DNA of 64,000 nucleotides, taken from contig NC_043006.1 of assembly GCF_006345805.1 (NCBI RefSeq), positions 94,736,001 through 94,800,000 on the forward strand. The letters are read 5' to 3'. Positions within the stretch are counted from its first letter, which is position 1. Every line of letters starts with the position of its first letter. This document shows, one piece after another, positions 1,161-64,000 of this stretch. The notes beneath the pieces are model-generated. The model saw only the letters and a program-made list of their open reading frames with translations. It searched no databases and was not told the origin of the DNA. Source of the DNA: Octopus sinensis. Its lineage: Eukaryota. Both the position numbers and the translations under genes were made by a program.

Positions 1161-1915
1161 ATACTATTAAAAAAGGATGAAGTTTTTTTCCCTACAGAAA
1201 AGAATTCCATCAGGAAGTGTAGCAGTATATTAAATTATAAATATCTTATAAGCAAGGACTAAAGAAGATTATTCTAAAGCCAATATACTGATATTCCACA
1301 TTTAATCCGCTTGCTACAGAAAATTGAACTGAAATTCGGGCAACTAACCATTGGAACGTCTAAATTTCGTTATTTCAATATTGAATCAATTTCGGAATTT
1401 ACCACATAAGGGTTCGTTCTTCATCAGTTAGTATATTAAAAGAAGCGTAAAGGTTCTTTTAATATACTGCCACACTTCCTGATGGAATTCTTTTCTGTAA
1501 AGAAAAAAACTTAAACCTTTTTTAATAGTAGTAAACTCATTACTGCTTGCTACAGGGGACTTGTAACCACTACAATATGTATCGGCGGAAAGTCAACATG
1601 TTGTCCTGAGACTGACATAAGAATTTTTATTTTTAGATATAATTGAGTTACTTAGATGTACTTGTGTTATTCGCTTCGGCTGTTCCAATAGGCGCATGTA
1701 AGTACCCTAATTATATTCTCTCGTAAGTTCAACTGATGAAGAACGAACCCTTATGTGGTTAATTCCGAAATTGATTCAATATTGAAATAACGAAATTTAG
1801 ACGTTCCAATGATTAGTTGCCCGAATTTCAGTTCAATTTTCTGTAGCAAGCGGATTAAATGTGGAATATCAGTATATTGGCTTTAGAATAATCTTCTTTA
1901 GCCCTGCTATAAGAT
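1161..1915. mobile_element. Ribozyme-bearing inverted-repeat element in (TA)n (PLE-derived)
   Basis: Arms ~1243-1429 and ~1731-1915 are reverse complements. A second inverted pair lies at ~1162-1232 and ~1460-1530. The element sits in the internal TA tract of a SINE. Confidence 0.85.
1728..1786 (+). ncRNA. Type I hammerhead ribozyme
   Basis: ttcaa-CTGATGA-a-gaa..ttc-c-GAAA-ttg att caa-TA-ttgaa; stem I is ttcaa/ttgaa. The antisense copy at 1374-1429 has a truncated stem I. Confidence 0.75.
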
Positions 1916-1930
1916 ATATATATAATATAT

Positions 1931-1962
<32 letters not shown>

Positions 1963-5476: not shown

Positions 5477-6170
5477 CAGTGGTTCTCAACGTTTTTTAAA
5501 AAAATGTTTTGCCTATGGAACACCTGTGATTCTTATTTTGTTCCGATGGTCCCTCACACTCATTCGATGTTGAAAAAATCCTATTATATTTTTATGAATA
5601 AATATTATTAGGAATTGTATTGACAAACAAATTGTTAAAATATTTTGTGTATTTTGAAAGTATAAACAATTTACTGCTTATATAAGCACAGGAGTGGCTA
5701 TGTTGTAAGAGACTAGATTCCCAATCACATGGTTCAAGGTTCAGTCCCACTGCGTGACACCTTGAGCAAGTGTGTTCTACTATGGCCTTGGGCTGACTAA
5801 GGCCTTGTGAGTGGATTCGGTAGACGGAAAGTGAAAGAAGCCCGTCGTTTATATATATATATATATATGTATGTATATATATGTATATATATGTGTGTGT
5901 GTGTTTGTGTATCTGTGTTTGTCCCCCCAACATTGTTTGACGACTAATGCTGGTGTGTTTACGCCCCCGTAACTTAGCGGTTCAGCAAAACATAGAATAA
6001 GTACTAGGCTTACAAAGAATAAGTCCTGCGGTCGATTTGTTCGACTAAAGGCTGTGCTCCAGCATGGCCGCAGACAAATGACTGAAACGTAAAAGAATGA
6101 AAGAATAAATTGTAGCAAAACTTATATGGATTTCCATGTGTGTTATATGCGCCGGGGTTGAGCACCACTG
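5477..6170. mobile_element. hAT/Charlie-type MITE interrupted by a SINE
   Basis: TIRs cagtggttctcaac / gttgagcaccactg; decayed 8-bp TSD (atccatag / tgccatac). Confidence 0.7.
5685..6110 (+). mobile_element. Full-length tRNA/CORE-like SINE
   Basis: tRNA head, CORE-like ccttgagcaagtg, internal TA/TG microsatellite and LINE-like tail. Confidence 0.9.
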
Positions 6171-6492
6171 TGCCATACTGACTGTGGCGGCTGAGTTACA
6201 AGTAGGAGTCTGACGCACATTTATTTATGAATCCGGCTGATCGAAGACATATCTTAAACACATACACGCGCACACACACTCACACACACACACACGCACA
6301 CACACACACACACACACATATGCATGCATATACACACACACGCATACTCAAAACATGTGTTTTAGCCGCACTTGCTATGCTGGTATATTTCCTTTACCTC
6401 AAAATTTCGCCTTTAATCTTCGCTTTTTTTCCCCAAGATTCGGAGTTCGATTCCGAGTAGTGACCTGAATAATAATAATGATGATGATGATG

Positions 6493-14464: not shown

Positions 14465-14480
14465 ATAATATATATATATA

Positions 14481-14995
14481 AATTAACAGAATGAGGTACA
14501 AGATCGAAGGCTATAATAATAGTTTTCAGAACATTTATAAAGATGTCTTACAGCTGTTTCCGGCATATTTTATATATCCCTTCATCGGAGACAGTGCGAG
14601 AAAATGTTGATGTAATAGTTATTATTGAGAAAATATGAAATACAGAGTGAAGGGGAGGGATGAAAATAGACGTGAGATACGTAAGGATATTTTATTTGCA
14701 GTTCCATTATTAAAGCAAAATTATGTATATATAAGAACTCACACAGAAAATACATTGTGCATAGATAATGGAACTGCAAATAAAATATCCTTACGTATCT
14801 CACGTCTATTTTCATTCCTCCACTTCACTCTGTGTTTCATATCTTCTGTATAATAACTATTACTTAAGCATTTTCTCGCACCATCTCTGATGACGGGCTA
14901 TATAAAATATCCCGGAAACAGCTGTAAGACCTCTTTTTAAATGTTCTGAAAACTATTCACAGACTTAGATTTTTTATCTCATTCTATTAATTTTT
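14481..14995. mobile_element. Ribozyme-bearing palindromic element in (TA)n
   Basis: Arms ~14481-14710 and ~14765-14995 are diverged reverse complements with a ~55-bp spacer. Confidence 0.85.
14884..14929 (+). ncRNA. Type I hammerhead ribozyme
   Basis: tct-CTGATGA-cggg..cccg-GAAA-cagctg-TA-aga. The antisense-arm copy (14544-14593) has a CCGATGA core and stem I tgtct/agaca. Confidence 0.85.
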
Positions 14996-23999: not shown

Positions 24000-24046
<47 letters not shown>

Positions 24047-24331
24047 TCCGTAATGAAGGATGAAATGAATAATTTGGAATAATTATCAATTACACCAAGT
24101 AGTCCTCGGCATGTAAAAGCCTCATTCGAGGAAAATTTAAGTAATACTAAGCAATAAAGGGTTTAGCAACGAATTGCCTTACCACATACCGAATTTAGAA
24201 ATAGCAGTCAAAGAGTTATAGCTATTTCTTTACTAAAAAGGGAGATCTCAGTAAAAACAGCAATTGGAAGGCAGACAAAACAGGTAAGAGAGAATGAATT
24301 GACGGCAATATATCATACAATTTTAAGTTAT

Positions 24332-24429
24332 CTACGGACGTACGTTTCGAAATCAAGTTTTTAGGAAGCATAAGAATTAAATATTAAATAATTCTATCTT
24401 ACCAAAAACTTCTTTTCTCTTCAGCGTAG
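24332..24429 (-). ncRNA. Type I hammerhead ribozyme
   Basis: ctacg-CTGAAGA-gaaa..tttc-GAAA-cgtacg-TC-cgtag on the - strand. Confidence 0.9.
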
Positions 24430-24882
24430 AATACTATAATCATAAATGATATATATTGAATTTTGAGATACTAGAAGGCACCAACTCACTCAGTATCAGA
24501 GCGAGCTAGAATCCGCAACTAGTATCACCAAATTCAATGCGTGAATGAAAAGATTGTGTCACCAGCCCCTTCCCACACGCGTGTAGCCAAAACAAGATGC
24601 TGTGGTCATCTACTGAGATAAAATATGGTTATCCGTAATAATGAAGGGTGAAATTAATTAATTTGGAATAATTATCAATTACACCAAGTAGTCCTCGGCA
24701 TGTAAAAGCCTCATTCGAGGAAAATTTAAGTAATACTAAGCAATAAAGGTGACACAATCTTTTCATTCACGCATTGAATTTGGTGATACTAGTTGCGGAT
24801 TCTAGCTCGCTCTGATATGATTGAGTTTGGTGCCTTTATGTATCTCAAAATTCAATATATAATCATTTATGATTATAGTATT

Positions 24883-24981
24883 CTACGCTGAAGAGAAAAG
24901 AAGTTTTTGGTAAGATAGAATTATTTAATATTTAATTCTTATGCTTTCCTAAAAACTTGATTTCGAAACGTACGTCCGTAG
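24883..24981 (+). ncRNA. Type I hammerhead ribozyme
   Basis: ctacg-CTGAAGA-gaaa..tttc-GAAA-cgtacg-TC-cgtag; predicted cut after 24976. Confidence 0.9.
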
Positions 24982-25475
24982 ATAACTTAAAATTGTATGA
25001 TAGATTGCCGTCAATCATTCTCTCTTACCTGTTTGTGTCTGCCTTCCAATTGCTGTTTTTACTGAGATCTCCCTTTTTAGTAGAAGAAGTAGCTATAACT
25101 CTTTGACTGCTATTTCTAAATTCGGTATGTGGTAAGGCAATTCGTTGCTAAACCCTTTATTGCTTAGTATTACTTAAATTTTCCTCGAATGAGGCTTTTA
25201 CATGCCGAGGACTACTTGGTGTAATTGATAATTATTCCAAATTAATTAATTTCACCCTTCATTATTACGGATAACCATATTTTATCTCAGTAGATGACCA
25301 CAGCATCTTGTTTTGGCTACACGCGGGTGGGAAGGGGCTGGTGACACAATCTTTTCATTCACGCATTGAATTTGGTGATACTAGTTGCGGATTCTAGCTC
25401 GCTCTGATACTGAGTTGAGTTGGTGCCTTCTAGTATTTCAAAATTCAATATATAATCATTTATGATTATAGTATT

Positions 25476-25575
25476 CTACGCTGAAGAGAAAAGAAGTTTT
25501 TGGTAAGATAGAATTATTTAATATTTAATTCTTATACTTTCCTAAAACTTGTTATTTCGAAACGTACGTCCGTAG
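25476..25575 (+). ncRNA. Type I hammerhead ribozyme
   Basis: Second tandem copy; predicted cut after 25570. Confidence 0.9.
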
Positions 25576-25759
25576 ATAACTTAAAATTGTATGATAGATT
25601 GCCGTCAATTCATTCTCTCTTACCTGTTTGTGTCTGCCTTCCAATTGCTGTTTTTACTGAGATCTCCTTTTTAGTAGAAGAAATAGCTATAACTCTTTGA
25701 CTGCTATTTCTAATTCGGTATGTGGTAAGGCAATTCGTTGCTAAACCCTTTATTGCTTA

Positions 25760-25832
<73 letters not shown>

Positions 25833-36748: not shown

Positions 36749-37285
36749 TGAAATGGATAAATGAATTATCTTGTTACGGATTATTCAAAATTTAACCGAT
36801 ACCTGGTAGCAAAATCACAACAGAAAAAACACGGCTGAGGTTACGACTATGGGGTGTCGCAACCGTGCCTTAGCGCGGATAGTTGAAGTTTTATATATTT
36901 AGTGAAGGGAAGAAATGGAGCTGAACGAAGATTCTACAAAATTCTTTTTTATTATTTTCTACACATGTTTCAAAGGCTGCAAATTTCCAAATTCGGATTG
37001 AATAAGGAGACCATTTTGCAGCTTTCTCTTCAGGAAAACCCAGGAATTTAAATCTCCAAACAAATGCGCCGCAAGCTTTTCGAACAAAACGCTCCTTAGG
37101 AGCCCATGGTATGGATATTTAAATTCCTGGATTTTCCTGAAGAGAAAGCTGCAAAATGGTCTCCTTATTCAATCCGAATTAGGGAATTTGCAGCCTTTGA
37201 AACATTGAAACATGTGTAGAAAATAATAAAAAGGAATTTTGTAGAATCTTCGTTCAGCTCCATTTCTTCCCTTCACTAAATATAT
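36749..37285. mobile_element. Ribozyme-bearing palindromic element in (TA)n
   Basis: Arms ~36892-37055 and ~37115-37285, plus a terminal segment at 36749-36890. Confidence 0.85.
36955..37038 (-). ncRNA. Type I hammerhead ribozyme
   Basis: ttttc-CTGAAGA-..gctgcaaa..tttgcagc..-GAAA-catgtg-TA-gaaaa. The + copy (37132-37223) has an 8-nt duplication at GAAA. Confidence 0.8.
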
Positions 37286-38243
37286 ATATATATATATGTA
37301 AAACATTTATGAATTTGAGTTGTGAGATTACTGATATGAAACCGTGCGTTGAAAGAGATATCGTTGTATTTTATGATGGTCATTATTTTTAGCCAAATAA
37401 ACAAGCGTGCTGTATATATTGTATATAACATAAGTCAGAATACTCTTCTTATTCTAACGTATGTCCATTGTCCAGAAATCTTTCCTCACACATCTGTGAC
37501 CGATTCAGTGGCACATCATAGAAGAACAGAATGTACTTAGAGAAGGAAGAGGACACACGAGGACGGAAAGAGTCGCTGAAAAGGTCAGAGATAGGGGTAA
37601 TATTGGTCAAATTGAAGTTAACCGAGGGGAAGGTCGTTGTGAATGGTAAGTTGGGGTCATTTACTATGTCAAAGGTAAATAAATAAAAATATTGTTGCAA
37701 ACAAAAATATACATTTAGACAGAATCAATGAAAAGAAAAGAGAAGAATTTTTAGAAGTGAAATTATGAATAATGAGAAGAAAAGGAAGAGAAGAGGTAAG
37801 GCGGATGTGCTAGGAGAGAAGAAGAAAGGAGGGGGAAGAAGGGGAGGGAGATGGGAGATAAAGTTTTTAGTCATTAGGGGTACACTGCAGTCGGAAATAA
37901 ATTAGTGGCTTACCACTGAACAGTAAAATTATATCTTCCTATATGCACGCACATATGCGTACGTTCTGTGTGCGCCTGTAGGACACTATAGGGGTGCGCG
38001 TGCGCGTAAGCATCCGCAGGCTCACGTGTGCAGAGAGGAGGAAATACCATTAAGGAAATAAAAAAGGTAGCTAAAAAAGTTTATACGCCATTTACCTTTG
38101 ACATAAGAAGTAAATGACCACAGCTTAATATTCACAACGACCTTCCACTTAGCTTTATTTCGTTAACTGTACAGGTGTATGTACACACACACATATGACG
38201 CACATAACACACACAACATCAACGGCACATACACACACACACA

Positions 38244-42570: not shown

Positions 42571-42604
<34 letters not shown>

Positions 42605-42646
42605 GTATCGAATGAAGTAAATGAAAAACAGGACGCAAAGGATTTT

Positions 42647-42739
42647 ACGGTACATATGTTTCGGGCTTTATTGAACAACTTATTCTTATATCAATGCATA
42701 ATTGATATAACAGATAGATCAAAAGCCTTCTTCAGCCGC
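42647..42739 (-). ncRNA. Type I hammerhead ribozyme
   Basis: gcgg-CTGAAGA-a-ggcttt..aaagcc-c-GAAA-catatg-TA-ccgt. Confidence 0.85.
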
Positions 42740-42886
42740 GTACATTTACCACACTAAGGACATGTGGAGTCTCGCAATACCACGTACGCCTATGAGGATT
42801 TACTTTCCTAATGAAACTCGGTTTTTCTCAAACTATTTCTCAAACCTGTTATAATGTGATACATGTCCTTAGTGTGGTAATTGTAC

Positions 42887-42979
42887 GCGGCTGAAGAAGG
42901 CTTTTGATCTATCTGTTATATCAATTATGCATTGATATAAGAATAAGTTGTTCAATAAAGCCCGAAACATATGTACCGC
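42887..42979 (+). ncRNA. Type I hammerhead ribozyme
   Basis: gcgg-CTGAAGA-a-ggcttt..aaagcc-c-GAAA-catatg-TA-ccgc. Confidence 0.88.
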
Positions 42980-43164
42980 AAAATCCTTTGCGTCCTGTTT
43001 TTCATTTACTTCATTTGATACATATATCCTATCACCTATGCCAATAGCTGGCATATACAGGTGCTTACATTTATCAAGTATTCACCCTGAATTTATTATA
43101 TATATATATATATACATATATACTGGTACATATGCATATATATGTAAGTAGGCATATATGCCTC

Positions 43165-56460: not shown

Positions 56461-58400
56461 TACAAAATTAGAAAATGGAGAATATACTTAAATCAAATCA
56501 AACATCAACCATCAGATGATACCCAATCAATACTTTATTACACTATTACATAACAGTAAAGGCATTATACAAAATATATTGTAAATATAATTAGACAAGG
56601 AAATAGAAATATAATATATAATTATATCATATCTGACAGCTGTTTCGGCCGTAAGGGCAAGCATGCCTCATTTAGCCTATAAGCCATATAAGGCAGGTAT
56701 AAATGAGACATTAGCAAGGATGCCCCACGGCCTCTTCAGAGAATTTAATTTATTATAAGTGTGAAAAAAATTTTTTTATACATAGCGGTGCCCCAGCATG
56801 GCCACAGCTCATTAGCTGAAACTGGAAAAATCAAAATCAAAATCATAAATATAAAAATATAAAATATAAAAACGTGTGCATAGACACTCATAATACTACA
56901 CATATATATACTCATTAATACAATAATACAAAATAAACAAAACAAAATATATCAATATATATTAACAAAAACAGTTATTCTACATATTGGGCTACTATTT
57001 CCAAAAACTAACCTACAGGAAAATATATGCACACTCACATTTAAATTTAAATCAGACCTATACATAAAAAATAATAAAAAAACACACAGTTCAGTTCATA
57101 AAATTATAAACCTATAAAAGTCAATAAAAATTACTATTAATTTAATAATAATAATAATAATAAATAATAATAATAATATAATAATAATAATATAATAATA
57201 ATAATAAATGCAATTATGTCTGTACCAAGTACACATCAATCGGACATCTGCATATCTATGAGTCTGATTATTCTGTCCGCTTGATATTGATTATTCTAGA
57301 TTAATTCGATTGGCTTATAGTTTAAAATTGAATCACAAAAGAAATTTTACGGTGTTTAGTCAAGAAACGCACATAACGCACACGCACATCCACAGATCAA
57401 TCGCACATACATACATAATTATATGTATACACACCACATACACTCATACACATACATATCCACAAACACCGTCAAACACATAAATAAATAAATAATAAAA
57501 GAGGTATAATCGTAGCTATATAGCCATCCAGCCTCTCTAAAACGACAACAATGCCACTAAATTAACTAAGAAGATCCACTCACATATTTCCATAAAATAT
57601 TTGTTATAAAGATACATATATTTATATATCAAGACATAGAATGTAATTCTTCGTAGGGTACACACAGCATATGACACCGTTTTTTCTGTAGTCATAGTAT
57701 TATATAACATAACGTTTACTGATTTCACCGTAATTTGCTATAATCACATGTACGCTAAGTTATAAAGTATAGATTAATTCTTTATAGTATAAATATATAT
57801 CTTTTCTACTTAATATATCCAATGCCAATATAATATTAATATTTATCCATCAAAGAACCTAAGCTACGAACTAATAGAATTACACTCAAATATACATGCC
57901 CATAATAATACTCATGTATAGCAGCAGATATACACAAACGCACCGTCTATTTTCATATGTGACTCGCGAGAAAACATTCATAGTACTTATATATAAATAT
58001 ACTTTTAAGCATCCGTGGACACATAGCTACAAATGTAATAATTAACAAGATTTGGCATTAAATAATATCAGTGGGGGACTTACCAATACAATGGTATATA
58101 AGTAAATAACAGAAATTAAATTAATTATAAGTTAATAAATTGTAATTACTTAAGATTAAAATGTGATAAAATAAATAAGAAGAAATAATTAAAATTACAT
58201 ACAGAGTATAAGCACAAACTAGTATACATGTATCCATATATTATTAAAATAAATAATTGATATGTATGTATATATCTACATTAAATAAGTAAATAAATAA
58301 ATAGTAAATGACTAATAAAATATAGATACCATAAAAAAAATTCAATAAATACATCGGTTATTGATAATATATGCAAATCAAGATATTATTTATATTGATA
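56461..58400 (-). mobile_element. PLE-type 3' region with a hammerhead; right boundary uncertain
   Basis: The 3' end abuts (TA)n at ~56460; AT-rich non-coding body; LINE-tail fragment at ~56785-56830. Confidence 0.5.
56632..56742 (-). ncRNA. Type I hammerhead ribozyme with a long stem II
   Basis: tct-CTGAAGA-ggccgt..acggcc-GAAA-cagctg-TC-aga. Confidence 0.85.
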
Positions 58401-58429
58401 TATATTGATATATATATAATTGATATATA

Positions 58430-58465
<36 letters not shown>

Positions 58466-58872
58466 ATATATATATATATATATTATATATAGATAGAAAA
58501 AGGTTTGAAAATGCAATTTTAAAAGATGTTTATTTATTTTACCGATTTCACTCTTTGGAAAAAGATTGTCAAAAGTAACATCTAGAAGTTTGGTTGCATT
58601 AATGATTGGTTGTTACAAAATGCTCACATTACATATATACAGTCTTTGGTAAGAAGGACATGTTAAGGACAAAAAAGTTTAACAAGTTCCTTAAAATATT
58701 GGGCACAAAAGATTACAACATAAATAATCATTCTCAAGAACATGTTAAAGATAGTTTCCAGCAGGAATTATTAAAAAGTTCAGTGAGAAGTTGGTATTGT
58801 ATCTGTATATTCAAACACGCACAGATTATTGGTTGACACAGAGTACTACAATACATATATATACATTCTTTG

Positions 58873-59207
58873 GTCATTAAATTCTGGCTGGATGAATATC
58901 CCAATGAGATCCCGGAAAGAATAAAAAAAGAATTCATCATTGAGGGCCTCAAATTTATTCTGCAAAACAACTTTATGAATTTTAATAACAACACTTACAG
59001 ACAGGTTTCAGGAACTGCAATGGGTACGAAAGCTGTTCCTACCTAAGAAAACCTTGGTGATGGCCTACCTGGAATCACATCTTTATGAAAAATCCAAATA
59101 TAAGTACAGCCAGTCTTTCCACAAATACCTGTTGGAGAACTGGAAACGCTAGATGATTGCCTCATCCTATGGTCCCGCACACTCGACCAACTTATTGACT
59201 TCAAAAA
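58873..59207 (+). pseudogene. Penelope-like reverse transcriptase fragment
   Basis: FILQNNFMNFNNNTYRQVSGTAMGTKAVPT*ENL/VMAYLE..NWKR/LDDCLILW matches the PLE RT motifs QxxGxAMG..PxYANLxM and WxRYxDD. Confidence 0.88.
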
Positions 59208-59960
59208 CCAAGACAATCACACACACGATTGACAAACGGGCACACATATACACACACTAGCCTACCAAATTTCTAAAAAAAACACACATCTATTTACGCC
59301 ACAATGGACCCTGGGACCATTCAAAAACAGCCACACACAAACACATGTATACATATACACACACAAAGACACATACACTCACACCATATATACGCACACA
59401 CACAAACACATACTCAATACCAACACACACAAAACGCCTATACACACACGCCACACAGATACACCTAACAGACATGGACACACATACGAACAAACACATA
59501 CACATTAACGCACACGCAACACACTAACAAACATTAACTACACACATACACACACACACACAAACGGGCACACATATACACACACCATCCTACCAAATTT
59601 TAAAAAACACACATATATTTACACCACAATGAACCTCAGGACCAATCAAAAACAGCCCCCCACATCAAACACATGTATACATATATATATACACACACAC
59701 AAAGACACACACACTCACACCATTCTGACATCCATACAGACACACATATACACACGCAGCACCATGCCAAATGCCATCCACACACATACATACACACCAC
59801 ATACACACACACACAGCATCAAGACAATCACACACGGGGTTGACAAACGGGTACACATATACACACACCATCCTACCAGATTTTACAAACACAGACACAT
59901 CTATTCACACCACATATGTATATACACACACACAAAGACACACACACTCAAACCATCCTG
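59208..59960 (+). repeat. CA-rich region with three imperfect direct repeats
   Basis: acaaacggg(c/t)acacatatacacacac..cctacca recurs at ~59232, ~59560 and ~59843. Confidence 0.75.
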
Positions 59961-60712
59961 ACCTCTAAAGCCAATCCCCCAAATCATTGATGCTTGAAGG
60001 AGAGACAAAAAGGAGAAATTCTTTTCAGTTCCACATTACTCGTCCTTCCCCCCCCCCAAAACACCTACAGTGTCTTTGAAATAGATAATATTCTTTTACG
60101 TTAATATGGTGGACAGGTCAGTTTTAGCTTCCCTACTATTATAATGTAAACCTTCTGGAACACATAATATTCTGTGCGTGTATAAAAATATTCCACCGAA
60201 CTTTTTAATAATTCCTTCTGGAAATAATCTTGAGAATGTATATACTTGTTGTAATCTTTTGTGCCCAATATTTCAATGAACTTGTTAAACTTTTTTATGT
60301 TCTTAACATGCTCTTGCCACCAAAGATTGAATATATATGTATTGTAGTACTCTATGTCAACCAATATTCTGTGCGTGTTTGAATATACAGATACAATAGC
60401 AACATCCCACTGAACCTTCTAATAATTCCTTCTGGAAACTATCTTTAACATGTTCTTGAGAATGATTATTTTTGTTGTAATCTTTTGTGCCCAATATTTT
60501 AAGGAACTTGTTAAACTTTTTTATGTCCTTAACATATATATGTAATGTAGCATTTTGTAACAACCAATTATTAATGCAACCAATCTTCTACATGTTGCTT
60601 TTGACAATCTTTTTCCAAAGGGTGAAACCGGTAAACATCTTTTAAACTTGCATTTTCAAACCTTCTTTCGTATATAATTCCACTCGTGCGGTATCCTACA
60701 AATCCACTTTGT

Positions 60713-60744
<32 letters not shown>

Positions 60745-60879
60745 ATATACACAATTAGGCACATGTGCGCATGTACGTTTATGTATATGATGTATACATG
60801 TATACCTGTGTGTGTGTGTGTGGGCGCGCGCGTGCACAGTACCAACGGTTCCACCCTCTCACTCGAATATACGAAGCCA

Positions 60880-61160
60880 ACATTTTAATAGCTTGGGATT
60901 CAAAGGGCCTTTAACTTTTTAATGCCCTACCACAGAACAACAGGGATCTGCAAGGTGTAGATACGGAAGTCTTCAAAAAACGTCTGGAGAAACTTTTCCC
61001 TGCAATACCAGATGAACTCACATCGTGGCAGGAGGCACAAACAAGAGCAGCAACCCCAACTCGCCACTTCAGCAGAAGCAATACTGGAAAGATTCCCGGA
61101 TATATTAAAGGTGGTGCACCAGCATGGCCTCAGCCTCTGGCTGAAACTCATAAAAGTTAA
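60880..61160 (+). mobile_element. 3' end of a CR1/L2-group LINE
   Basis: DLQGVDTEVFKKRLE..IPDE coding end plus the ggtggtgcaccagcatggcctcagcctctggctgaaac tail. Confidence 0.75.
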
Positions 61161-61234
61161 GCGTCAAAAGATATGTGTGTGTGTGTTTATATATATATAT
61201 ATATATATATATAATAGATAGATAGATAGATAGT

Positions 61235-61268
<34 letters not shown>

Positions 61269-61289
61269 CATTTTTCTGCCTCTACTTAT

Positions 61290-61428
61290 TTCTGTGTTCC
61301 TTTCTATGGAAGTGCGTAGGGTCGAAACGTTAAAGACTTTTTCACTTCCTGCTGGTTAAACTAATACATCTCTTTGTTTCTATATCACCTGTCTTCGTCT
61401 TTTGTTTTTTTTTGTGAATTCTCCCTAT
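61290..61428 (+). mobile_element. Short repeat with a decayed minimal hammerhead (relative at ~28505-28585)
   Basis: ttccttt..gaag(a/t)gcgtag..tcGAAAcgT(A/T)aaa is shared by both copies; the core is mutated. Confidence 0.45.
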
Positions 61429-61436
61429 ATATATAT

Positions 61437-61482
<46 letters not shown>

Positions 61483-63210: not shown

Positions 63211-63487
63211 GTGGAATTTGATTTAGTATTTCTAAATTGAATTATTTTTCCTTGTAAGTTTGGATTTTATTCCCTCAAATAATAATTATATATATATATA
63301 TATTATATATATAATAAATATTAGGGAATAAATCCAAATTTACAGGGAAAAAATCAGATTTAGGATTAAATCCAATTTTATAGTAAAATATTATAAAATA
63401 TTATTAGAGACAAAACCACTATTTTGCAAAACAAACAAGGAAAGACTTAATCATACATAAAATTTTAATAAATAGTCAAAAAAACCG

Positions 63488-63530
63488 CCACTACAATTGT
63501 TTCTTGTCTTGATCGACAATCTTCAGGTGG
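63488..63530 (-). ncRNA. Type I hammerhead ribozyme
   Basis: ccac-CTGAAGA-ttgtc gatcaa gacaa-GAAA-caattg-TA-gtgg. Confidence 0.92.
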
Positions 63531-63577
63531 ACTTCCAATAAGTCAGTTTCAAATTTTGAAACTGACTTATTGGAAGT

Positions 63578-63620
63578 CCACCTGAAGATTGTCGATCAAG
63601 ACAAGAAACAATTGTAGTGG
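63578..63620 (+). ncRNA. Type I hammerhead ribozyme
   Basis: ccac-CTGAAGA-ttgtc gatcaa gacaa-GAAA-caattg-TA-gtgg. Confidence 0.92.
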
Positions 63621-64000
63621 CGGTTTTTTTGACTATTTATTAAAATTTTATGTATTGATTAAGTCTTTCCTTGTTTGTTTTGCAAAATAGTGGTTTTGTC
63701 TCTAATAATATTTTATATATATATATATATACTTTCTTTCTATCAGCCCTTTCACACTTACTTCGTTCTTTCCACTCTTCTTTCTTTCGTTCTCCTTTTC
63801 TCAAATTTCTTGGTTTTATCTTCATTCTCACCTTCTCTCCTCGTTCACTTCACTCTGTCCCTTTACTTTTTTCTCGTCCCTCCCTAATTATTCTATCCCT
63901 CTGTCTCTACTTCTCTCCTCTCCATGTGACCGGTGTCCGGCCAAGCCTGACCTTTCATTCCTGGTTTGACTACCATCCGTGTAACATCTATATTCTTTTC

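What the first reader, a model, noticed from the sequence alone, without database searches (positions are those of the whole stretch)
58497..60710. Penelope-like RT remnant inside the same inverted, (TA)n-flanked architecture: the likely mobilising partner
Seen: an inverted copy of the 3' terminal region (58497-58872) is fused directly to a PLE-type RT fragment (GTAMGTK, WKR/LDD). A CA-rich segment follows, then the sense terminal region with a decayed hammerhead. Both arms read TTGACAA where CTGACGA is expected, so the ribozyme was probably dead before this copy inserted. The ORF track misses this RT. Inference: it ties the non-coding palindromes to PLE machinery and suggests self-cleavage is not strictly required in cis.
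Basis: partly seen in the sequence, partly recalled or inferred. Interest (0 to 1): 0.75.

Follow-up and report, generated by a model that had tools for sequence, protein, structure and literature searches.

The report
Broken Neptune retrotransposon with variant hammerhead
This is one dead, mirror-ended copy of a common Penelope-type (Neptune-like) jumping gene; the ribozyme spelling that looked broken is shared by the whole family and four sister families and is likely a working variant, and this element is likely not the carrier of the neighbouring mirror repeats.

Summary
The anatomy is real; both inferences fail. 58497-60713 is a 5'-truncated, internally deleted copy of an abundant Penelope-like family that encodes RT plus a C-terminal GIY-YIG nuclease with Neptune motifs. 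The CA-rich stretch and terminal region are the family's own 3' UTR and pLTR. Inverted arms in (TA)n are textbook for these elements. TTGACAA is not decay: 99 of 100 listed family copies read U3...A8, none of 812 reads C3-G8, and four sister families (54-68% protein identity) keep UUGANAA with different stems. U3-A8 is a published compensatory core pair. The damage in this copy differs between arms, so it came after insertion. Caveat: this family's predicted fold favours an inactive form, and cleavage is untested. The other palindromes share no sequence with it and have C3-G8 cores; one is the end of its own Hydra-type coding element. By-products: 23 of 24 inverted insertions have exactly one tailed end; both ends map to UA runs at a conserved stem-loop; all five families have a U UUU UUA site joining an upstream ORF to the RT frame. 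The scan noted U3-A8 cores and palindromes as PLE ends earlier in other families of this genome.

The parts
58383..58495 (.). left (TA)n tract, likely the target site
   Evidence: (TRF)
58497..58874 (-). inverted, 5'-truncated copy of the family's 3' terminal region, ending at the short (tail-less) end
   Evidence: 92-96% identical to the 39 other best-scoring genomic copies
58534..58578 (-). hammerhead of the inverted arm: U3-A8 core intact; own substitutions in helix III (TCGG for CCGG) and stem I
58875..59209 (+). RT fragment (family residues about 334-445, GTAMG to the YLDD region), with a stop, a 1-nt insertion and a 4-nt deletion
59207..59960 (+). CA-rich 3' UTR of the same family, joined to the RT by an internal deletion with ACC microhomology (59207-59209); junction found once in the genome
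59961..60713 (+). 3' terminal region (pLTR) in sense orientation, with internal ~210-nt repeat
   Evidence: follows the RT-EN ORF and UTR in L071, L073, L080 at 83-86%
60595..60639 (+). hammerhead of the sense arm: U3-A8 core intact; a 9-nt deletion removes the 3' strand of stem I, so this copy is likely inactive
60677..60713 (+). optional tail between the internal TATATA (60671-60676, short end) and the long end
60713..60749 (.). right (TA)n tract

Best explanation
The stretch is a single dead insertion of an abundant RT plus GIY-YIG Penelope-like retrotransposon with Neptune motifs, and its TTGACAA is the family's normal U3-A8 hammerhead core, likely functional in the source element. Likely mechanism (inferred): the element's nuclease cut a (TA)n tract on both strands; each DNA end annealed to one of two UA runs 42 nt apart in the element RNA and primed reverse transcription, one strand running about 3.7 kb into the RT gene and the other about 380 nt; the two cDNAs were joined bluntly, giving head-to-head arms with one tailed and one tail-less end. 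A 1.4-1.6 kb internal deletion (during copying or later) and point damage then accumulated. Shown: family membership, structure, lesions, family-wide core, one-tail rule. Inferred: double priming, order of events, ribozyme activity.
For: RT fragment differs from seven ORF-bearing copies by 13-20 substitutions in 332-334 nt; L044 holds a 776-codon open frame with RVT_1 and GIY-YIG above cut-off. ORF, CA-rich UTR and terminal region are collinear in L071, L073, L074, L080. 812 exact matches to the family hammerhead pattern, 0 with C3-G8; of the 100 listed, 94 TTGACAA, 5 TTGATAA, 1 TTGACGA. Five sister families at 54-68% protein identity all carry UUGANAA, GAAA, a CCGG or CATG helix III and UH, with different stems I and II. 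U3-A8 is reported as a natural covariation, active in vitro, and U10.1-U11.1 as the best tolerated mismatch (PMC3088659 passages); U3-A8 occurs in schistosome PLEs (PMC4209133); T..T beside stem II is common in Hydra PLE hammerheads (PMC8557442 File S2). Arms differ from each other at 15 of 288 positions and their hammerhead lesions are not shared. 19 head-to-head pairs, 2 tandem pairs and 0 tail-to-tail pairs among 100 listed sites; both arms share the subfamily loop letter in 19 of 19. 23 of 24 scorable inverted insertions are long+short. 78 of 91 termini are followed by (TA)n by a strict pattern.
Against: ViennaRNA puts the hammerhead dimer of this family 7.8 kcal/mol above an alternative fold (-12.9 against -20.7), whereas families B, D and E fold close to the dimer form; so this family may cleave poorly without protein help. 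No cleavage data. Within the family, hammerhead columns are no more conserved than the 60 nt downstream, so the selection argument rests on the comparison between families. Arm similarity could partly come from gene conversion. No tree with labelled Neptune references was built. No background rate was computed for (TA)n flanks.
Confidence: 0.87

Rival explanations
1. The family ribozyme is catalytically dead or nearly so, and the family spread without self-cleavage.
For: Predicted competing fold; weak A-U-rich stem II with U-U at its base; hammerhead mutants did not reduce insertion in vitro for the anole PAc element, and Naiads lack canonical hammerheads (PMC11167929; PMC8557442).
Against: The 3-8 pair, G5, A6, A9, GAAA, palindromic helix III and a legal H17 (A or U in 86 of 87 parsed termini) are all kept, and the same core is kept in four sister families whose stems have turned over.
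Confidence: 0.17
2. This family is the trans-acting partner of the non-coding palindromes in the window.
For: Same architecture and (TA)n target; the 24-25.8 kb repeat is a ~593-nt tandem unit with no sign of coding capacity and must borrow an RT; the 42.6-43.0 kb family extends at least 1.3 kb with no RT in four 10-kb loci.
Against: No similarity of pLTRs; all six palindromes have CTGANGA cores; the 63.3-63.7 kb one ends a 6.3-kb unit with its own Hydra-type ORF; at least five other coding PLE families exist in the genome; this family makes RT-less palindromes of its own (L146-L151). PMC3846280 reports no cross-mobilisation between PLE types in a rotifer.
Confidence: 0.1
3. The inverted arm arose by fold-back of one cDNA, or by two independent insertions into one TA tract, not by double priming.
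For: Self-priming was proposed for inverted PLE junctions (PMC3846280); tails have been ascribed to nuclease resolution of an intermediate (PMC8557442). The arms here differ by 5.2%, more than in most copies.
Against: No TA tract lies between the arms; arms within an insertion differ by a median 1.8% against 11.4% between insertions; the tail sits on the shorter arm in several copies (L149, L151, L157, L160), which simple fold-back from a tail-less first strand cannot give; independent choice of ends would give about half mixed pairs, not 23 of 24.
Confidence: 0.2

Closest known systems
Neptune-clade EN+ Penelope-like elements (PMC8557442: passages, supplement parts 1-2 and text rows of Figs S2 and S7; figures not seen)
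   Same: RT then Cys-rich linker then GIY-YIG with CCHH; DKG motif; (TA)n bias; partial tandem and inverted pLTRs; tail at one end only; hammerhead in the pLTR.
   Different: U3-A8 core throughout five families; upstream 440-480 codon ORF overlapping the RT frame at U UUU UUA (the paper's Fig. 1 legend mentions an ORF1 frameshift for some PLE types, clade not visible to me); long microsatellite-like 3' UTR.
Pen2-derived insertion on scaffold 304 of Adineta vaga (PMC3846280, passages)
   Same: Inverted pLTRs, internal microhomology-mediated deletion, in-frame stop; tail on one of the inverted pLTRs is described for the family.
   Different: Penelope/Poseidon clade, ordinary target-site duplication, no microsatellite target.
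PAc, Poseidon of Anolis carolinensis (PMC11167929, parts 1-2 of 4)
   Same: Two RT start sites that define the tail, an AC-rich stem-loop, both target strands cut and extended, hammerhead upstream of the start sites.
   Different: PAc start sites are not homologous to the target; here both are UA runs matching (TA)n. PAc has a C3-G8 core that overlaps the ORF start.
U3-A8 minimal hammerheads of Schistosoma Cercyon PLEs (PMC4209133, parts 1-2 of 4) and natural core variants (PMC3088659, passages)
   Same: Same compensatory 3-8 pair; dimer-type design.
   Different: Here with a palindromic CCGG/CATG helix III and fixed in whole families.

Membership tests
EN+ Penelope-like element | RT with C-terminal GIY-YIG nuclease in one frame | tested here: met
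   L044 776-codon frame; RVT_1 32.7 bits (cut-off 29.6); GIY-YIG 26.6 bits (cut-off 22.6). The window copy has lost the nuclease by deletion.
EN+ Penelope-like element | pLTRs in partial tandem or inverted arrangement, optional 30-40 nt tail | tested here: met
EN+ Penelope-like element | hammerhead motif in the pLTR | tested here: met
Neptune clade | CX2-5CxxC linker and CCHH in the nuclease, DKG motif | tested here: met
   CGRPNC..C at 646, YVIRC at 686, YIGQT at 697, His at 712 and later, DKG at 156
Neptune clade | Neptune-length spacer between linker CxxC and the GIY motif (versus short in Nematis) | tested here: met
   24 residues here; 25 and 27 in two Neptune rows, under 10 in three Nematis rows of Fig. 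S2 text; compared by eye
Neptune clade | grouping with named Neptune RTs in a tree | not testable with these tools
   no labelled reference sequences in the data folder; Neptune is itself paraphyletic in PMC8557442
Neptune clade | (TA)n insertion bias | tested here: met
   78 of 91 termini; no background computed
Naiad | N-terminal nuclease, DKA motif | tested here: not met
   nuclease is C-terminal, DKG
Penelope/Poseidon | no Cys-rich linker | tested here: not met
   linker present
Hydra clade | DKT, CxCX5C linker, no CCHH | tested here: not met
   not met for this family; met for the family behind the 63.3-63.7 kb palindrome
active hammerhead ribozyme | core with a Watson-Crick 3-8 pair, three helices, UH site | tested here: met
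   family and four sister families; not met in the sense arm of this copy (9-nt deletion)
active hammerhead ribozyme | active fold favoured | tested here: inconclusive
   disfavoured by 7.8 kcal/mol for this family, near-optimal for B, D, E
active hammerhead ribozyme | self-cleavage | not testable with these tools
   only contigs were offered, no raw reads

The most novel reading that the evidence does not exclude
These Neptune families show a complete replication cycle in their fossils: a U3-A8 hammerhead cuts the transcript to unit length and closes it into a circle (or sets up an end-to-end jump); a dimeric RT-nuclease, made by -1 frameshifting from an upstream coiled-coil-like ORF, then primes both ends of a cut (TA)n tract on ONE RNA, at two UA runs on either side of the 5' strand of a conserved stem-loop that lies 45-130 nt behind the cut and just before the first start codon. 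This would explain at once the microsatellite targeting, the head-to-head arms, the one-tail rule and the near-identical pLTRs, and would make cleavage required in cis.
Probability: 0.3. Interest if true: 0.68.

Novelty: new member of a known kind. Interest (0 to 1): 0.33.

Why it matters
The copy itself is ordinary. It matters as a correction: motif searches and readers that demand CUGANGA will call whole PLE clades ribozyme-dead when they carry a compensated core. The family is also a convenient test bed for an open question, how PLEs make inverted ends and whether their hammerheads are needed: hundreds of copies, near-intact members, a strict one-tail rule and two defined start sites give sharp predictions for the existing in vitro PLE assay.

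Tried and rejected
Rfam scan: only low-complexity microRNA-like matches among the 150 rows shown. A search for a sister family with a canonical core and the same helix III gave 5 hits against 2 in the control, unrelated to the family. Sequencing runs: no RNA holder listed on record; only contigs; four runs laid showed no listed variant at core positions 3 or 8, with 12 rows not shown; not used as evidence on expression or cleavage. Idea that the deleted composite is itself a mobile sub-family: both junction patterns occur once in the genome, exact match only. Idea that sister Neptune families own the other palindromes: matches near their ORFs were separate insertions outside or inside the units. 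First pass on the 63.5 kb family (30 best loci) showed no linked ORF; walking upstream found it. The palindromes at 1.2-1.9, 14.5-15.0 and 36.7-37.3 kb were not traced. Pfam and the protein atlas gave nothing usable for the upstream ORF; no strong structure was predicted behind the slippery site (-0.2 to -11 kcal/mol). The primary paper on 3-8 exchanges (PMC1986816) is not held; its result is taken second-hand from PMC3088659. Paper searches for the frameshift in Neptune found only the Fig. 1 legend of PMC8557442; this does not show it is unpublished, and most of that supplement (55 of 59 parts) and all figures were not seen.

Full report
Observation. The element runs from 58497 to about 60713 between two (TA)n tracts. 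The left arm 58497-58874 is the reverse complement of 60319-60667 (87% with gaps; alignment). It abuts an RT fragment, 58875-59209, with no shared or added bases. The fragment has GTAMGTK, a TAA stop, a 1-nt insertion and a 4-nt deletion that splits WKR from LDD. Both arms read TTGACAA. So the description holds, with a 2-nt correction.

What it is. The arm has many genomic relatives (1,883 candidates, 40 scored, 92-96% identical), and so has the RT piece (313 candidates, 40 scored, 92-95%). [quoted passage not shown] All 120 listed database relatives of 1,830 are of this type by length and mostly by Pfam label; one is named from Octopus bimaculoides at 65%, so the host is likely an octopus (inference). 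In twenty 10-kb loci chosen for the RT, the ORF is followed by a CA- or TG-rich UTR and the terminal region; L071, L073, L074 and L080 match the window's UTR or terminus at 83-92%. The window copy is therefore a 5'-truncated family member that also lost 1.4-1.6 kb (thumb, linker, nuclease, start of the UTR) at a 3-nt microhomology. Both junctions occur once in the genome as exact patterns, so there is no sign that the composite moved again. Motifs place the family with Neptune: DKG, a CX4CxxC linker, two Cys inside the GIY-YIG core and two His after it, with Neptune-like spacing against the text rows of Fig. S2 of PMC8557442. No labelled tree could be built.

The ribozyme. TTGACAA is not private to this copy. 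A pattern with positions 3, 7 and 8 left free has 812 exact matches, 0 in the reversed control; of the 100 listed, 94 read TTGACAA, 5 TTGATAA, 1 TTGACGA. The C3-G8 version has 0 matches. Of 91 fetched termini, 87 could be parsed: 82 have U3-A8 with an intact core, and H17 is A in 50, U in 36, G in 1. The motif has a 6-bp stem I, a 5-bp stem II behind a U-U pair, and a palindromic helix III of the dimer type. U3-A8 is a known compensatory change: PMC3088659 states that such ribozymes are active in vitro and that U10.1-U11.1 is the best tolerated mismatch (passages); PMC4209133 found about 1,300 U3-A8 motifs tied to schistosome PLEs; T..T beside stem II recurs in Hydra PLE hammerheads. A protein search of the genome (60 of 33,201 candidates scored) gave four sister families, 54-68% identical to each other and to this one. 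All four carry UUGANAA, with position 7 free, GAAA, CCGG or CATG, and UH, while stems I and II differ completely yet still pair (family C has a weak stem I). Twenty shuffles of the same 367 kb gave one hit in all. Against activity: for this family the dimer hammerhead is predicted 7.8 kcal/mol above a competing fold, unlike B, D and E, and within the family the core is no better conserved than its 3' flank. The anole ribozyme needed its protein to cleave (PMC11167929), which would fit. In the window copy the sense arm lost 9 nt of stem I and the inverted arm has its own substitutions; these are not shared, so they came after insertion.

The architecture. Among the 100 listed sites there are 19 head-to-head pairs within 8 kb, 2 tandem pairs and no tail-to-tail pair; the two arms share the subfamily loop letter in 19 of 19 at 46:54 frequencies. 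Family ends are of two kinds, 42 nt apart, each at a TATA run, and 78 of 91 are followed by (TA)n by a strict pattern; most misses were parse failures or interrupted tracts. Of 66 loci examined, 24 had both outer ends scorable: 23 have one long and one short end, one has a short end and a stub of the tail, none has two long ends (L156 and L161 were missed by the script). Arms within an insertion differ by a median 1.8% against 11.4% between insertions; the window's arms differ at 15 of 288, so it is an older copy. The tail is on the longer arm in some copies and the shorter in others. Inverted pLTRs and a tail at one end are published features (PMC8557442; PMC3846280, which also describes a deleted, stop-bearing derivative with inverted pLTRs). 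In full-length copies of families A, B and C the tail is the 5' strand and loop of a stem-loop that closes just before the first ATG; the short end is the UA run before the stem, the long end a UA run in the loop (stem predicted in 8 of 9 copies, z-scores only -0.5 to -2.4). This resembles the two start sites in an AC-rich stem-loop of PAc. I infer double priming from the two ends of a cut (TA)n tract. The two pLTRs of one copy differ by 1, 3, 7 and 14 bases in 355-536 (four copies), in line with a more-than-unit template.

The partner claim. The family pLTR has no similarity to the six other palindromes (best E 0.36), all of which have CTGANGA cores. The 63.3-63.7 kb palindrome was walked upstream: it is the end of a 6.3-kb unit whose ORF has DKT, a CxCX5C linker and no CCHH, the Hydra-clade marks, and gives no tblastn hit with this family's protein at E 1e-4. 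The 24-25.8 kb repeat is a ~593-nt tandem unit at 97-98% identity, retrozyme-like, partner unknown. The 42.6 kb family extends at least 1.3 kb without RT in four loci. Three were not traced. This family makes RT-less palindromes of its own (L146-L151). The simplest reading is that each coding PLE family leaves its own palindromes.

Side finding. Full-length copies have an upstream ORF (448 codons, open in L062 and L066) that overlaps the RT frame; a TTTTTTA run sits in the X XXY YYZ phase in all five families, with the RT frame open in -1, and three families have no ATG near the start of that frame. The upstream ORFs of A, B and C are 41-45% identical. U UUU UUA is the HIV-1 slippery site (PMC4373837, abstract start). 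The Fig. 1 legend of PMC8557442 mentions an ORF1 frameshift in some PLE types, and a killifish Neptune has two ORFs (PMC12602865, passages), so this is likely known in outline.

Papers seen: PMC4209133 and PMC11167929 parts 1-2 of 4; bioRxiv 2026.07.22.740005 part 1 of 5; passages of PMC8557442 (plus supplement parts 1-2 and search rows), PMC3088659, PMC3884650, PMC3846280, PMC13282606, PMC12602865, PMC5408684. Verdict: real, a new member of a known kind; the dead-ribozyme and partner inferences are not supported; interest 0.33, carried by the family-level regularities.

Noticed in passing
L062:1714-3060; L198:1405-2718; L204:1274-2713: Upstream ORF of 437-479 codons overlapping the RT-nuclease frame at a U UUU UUA site conserved in five Neptune-type families: candidate -1 programmed frameshift; no strong downstream structure predicted.
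   Followed up: partly
L062:1640-1716; L173; L210: Conserved stem-loop (ACTCGT.. / ..ACGAG) between the hammerhead and the first ATG; the two family 3' ends map to UA runs before the stem and in the loop.
   Followed up: partly
window 63310-63722; L243, L245, L247: Very young palindrome (many 100% identical copies) that is the 3' end of a 6.3-kb Hydra-type PLE with an Asn-rich insert and a long repetitive UTR.
   Followed up: yes
window 24043-25763: About 593-nt hammerhead-bearing unit with a very long stem II, in tandem and inverted arrays genome-wide at 97-98% identity; retrozyme-like, partner unknown.
   Followed up: partly
window 42599-43090; L142, L143: Hammerhead-bearing family extending at least 1.3 kb upstream; no RT found in four 10-kb loci.
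   Followed up: partly
window 1165-1934, 14480-14990, 36749-37290: Three more (TA)n-flanked palindromes with canonical hammerhead cores; coding partners not sought.
   Followed up: no
window 60840-61170: Degenerate coding-like fragment (..LFNALPQ..DTEVFKKRLEKL..IPDE..) that resembles the 3' end of a CR1/L2-type LINE (resemblance recalled, not tested).
   Followed up: no
window 61190-61440: Copy of another dispersed repeat with a worn hammerhead-like stretch near 61310-61335; 75-84% matches in at least ten fetched loci.
   Followed up: no
L204:18-520 and 5950-6455: A family-C unit duplicated in tandem together with about 400 nt of flank (5.9-kb period), possibly a 3' transduction or local duplication.
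   Followed up: no
L211:5614 minus strand: Another U3-A8 hammerhead with a CTATAG helix III, from a family not identified.
   Followed up: no
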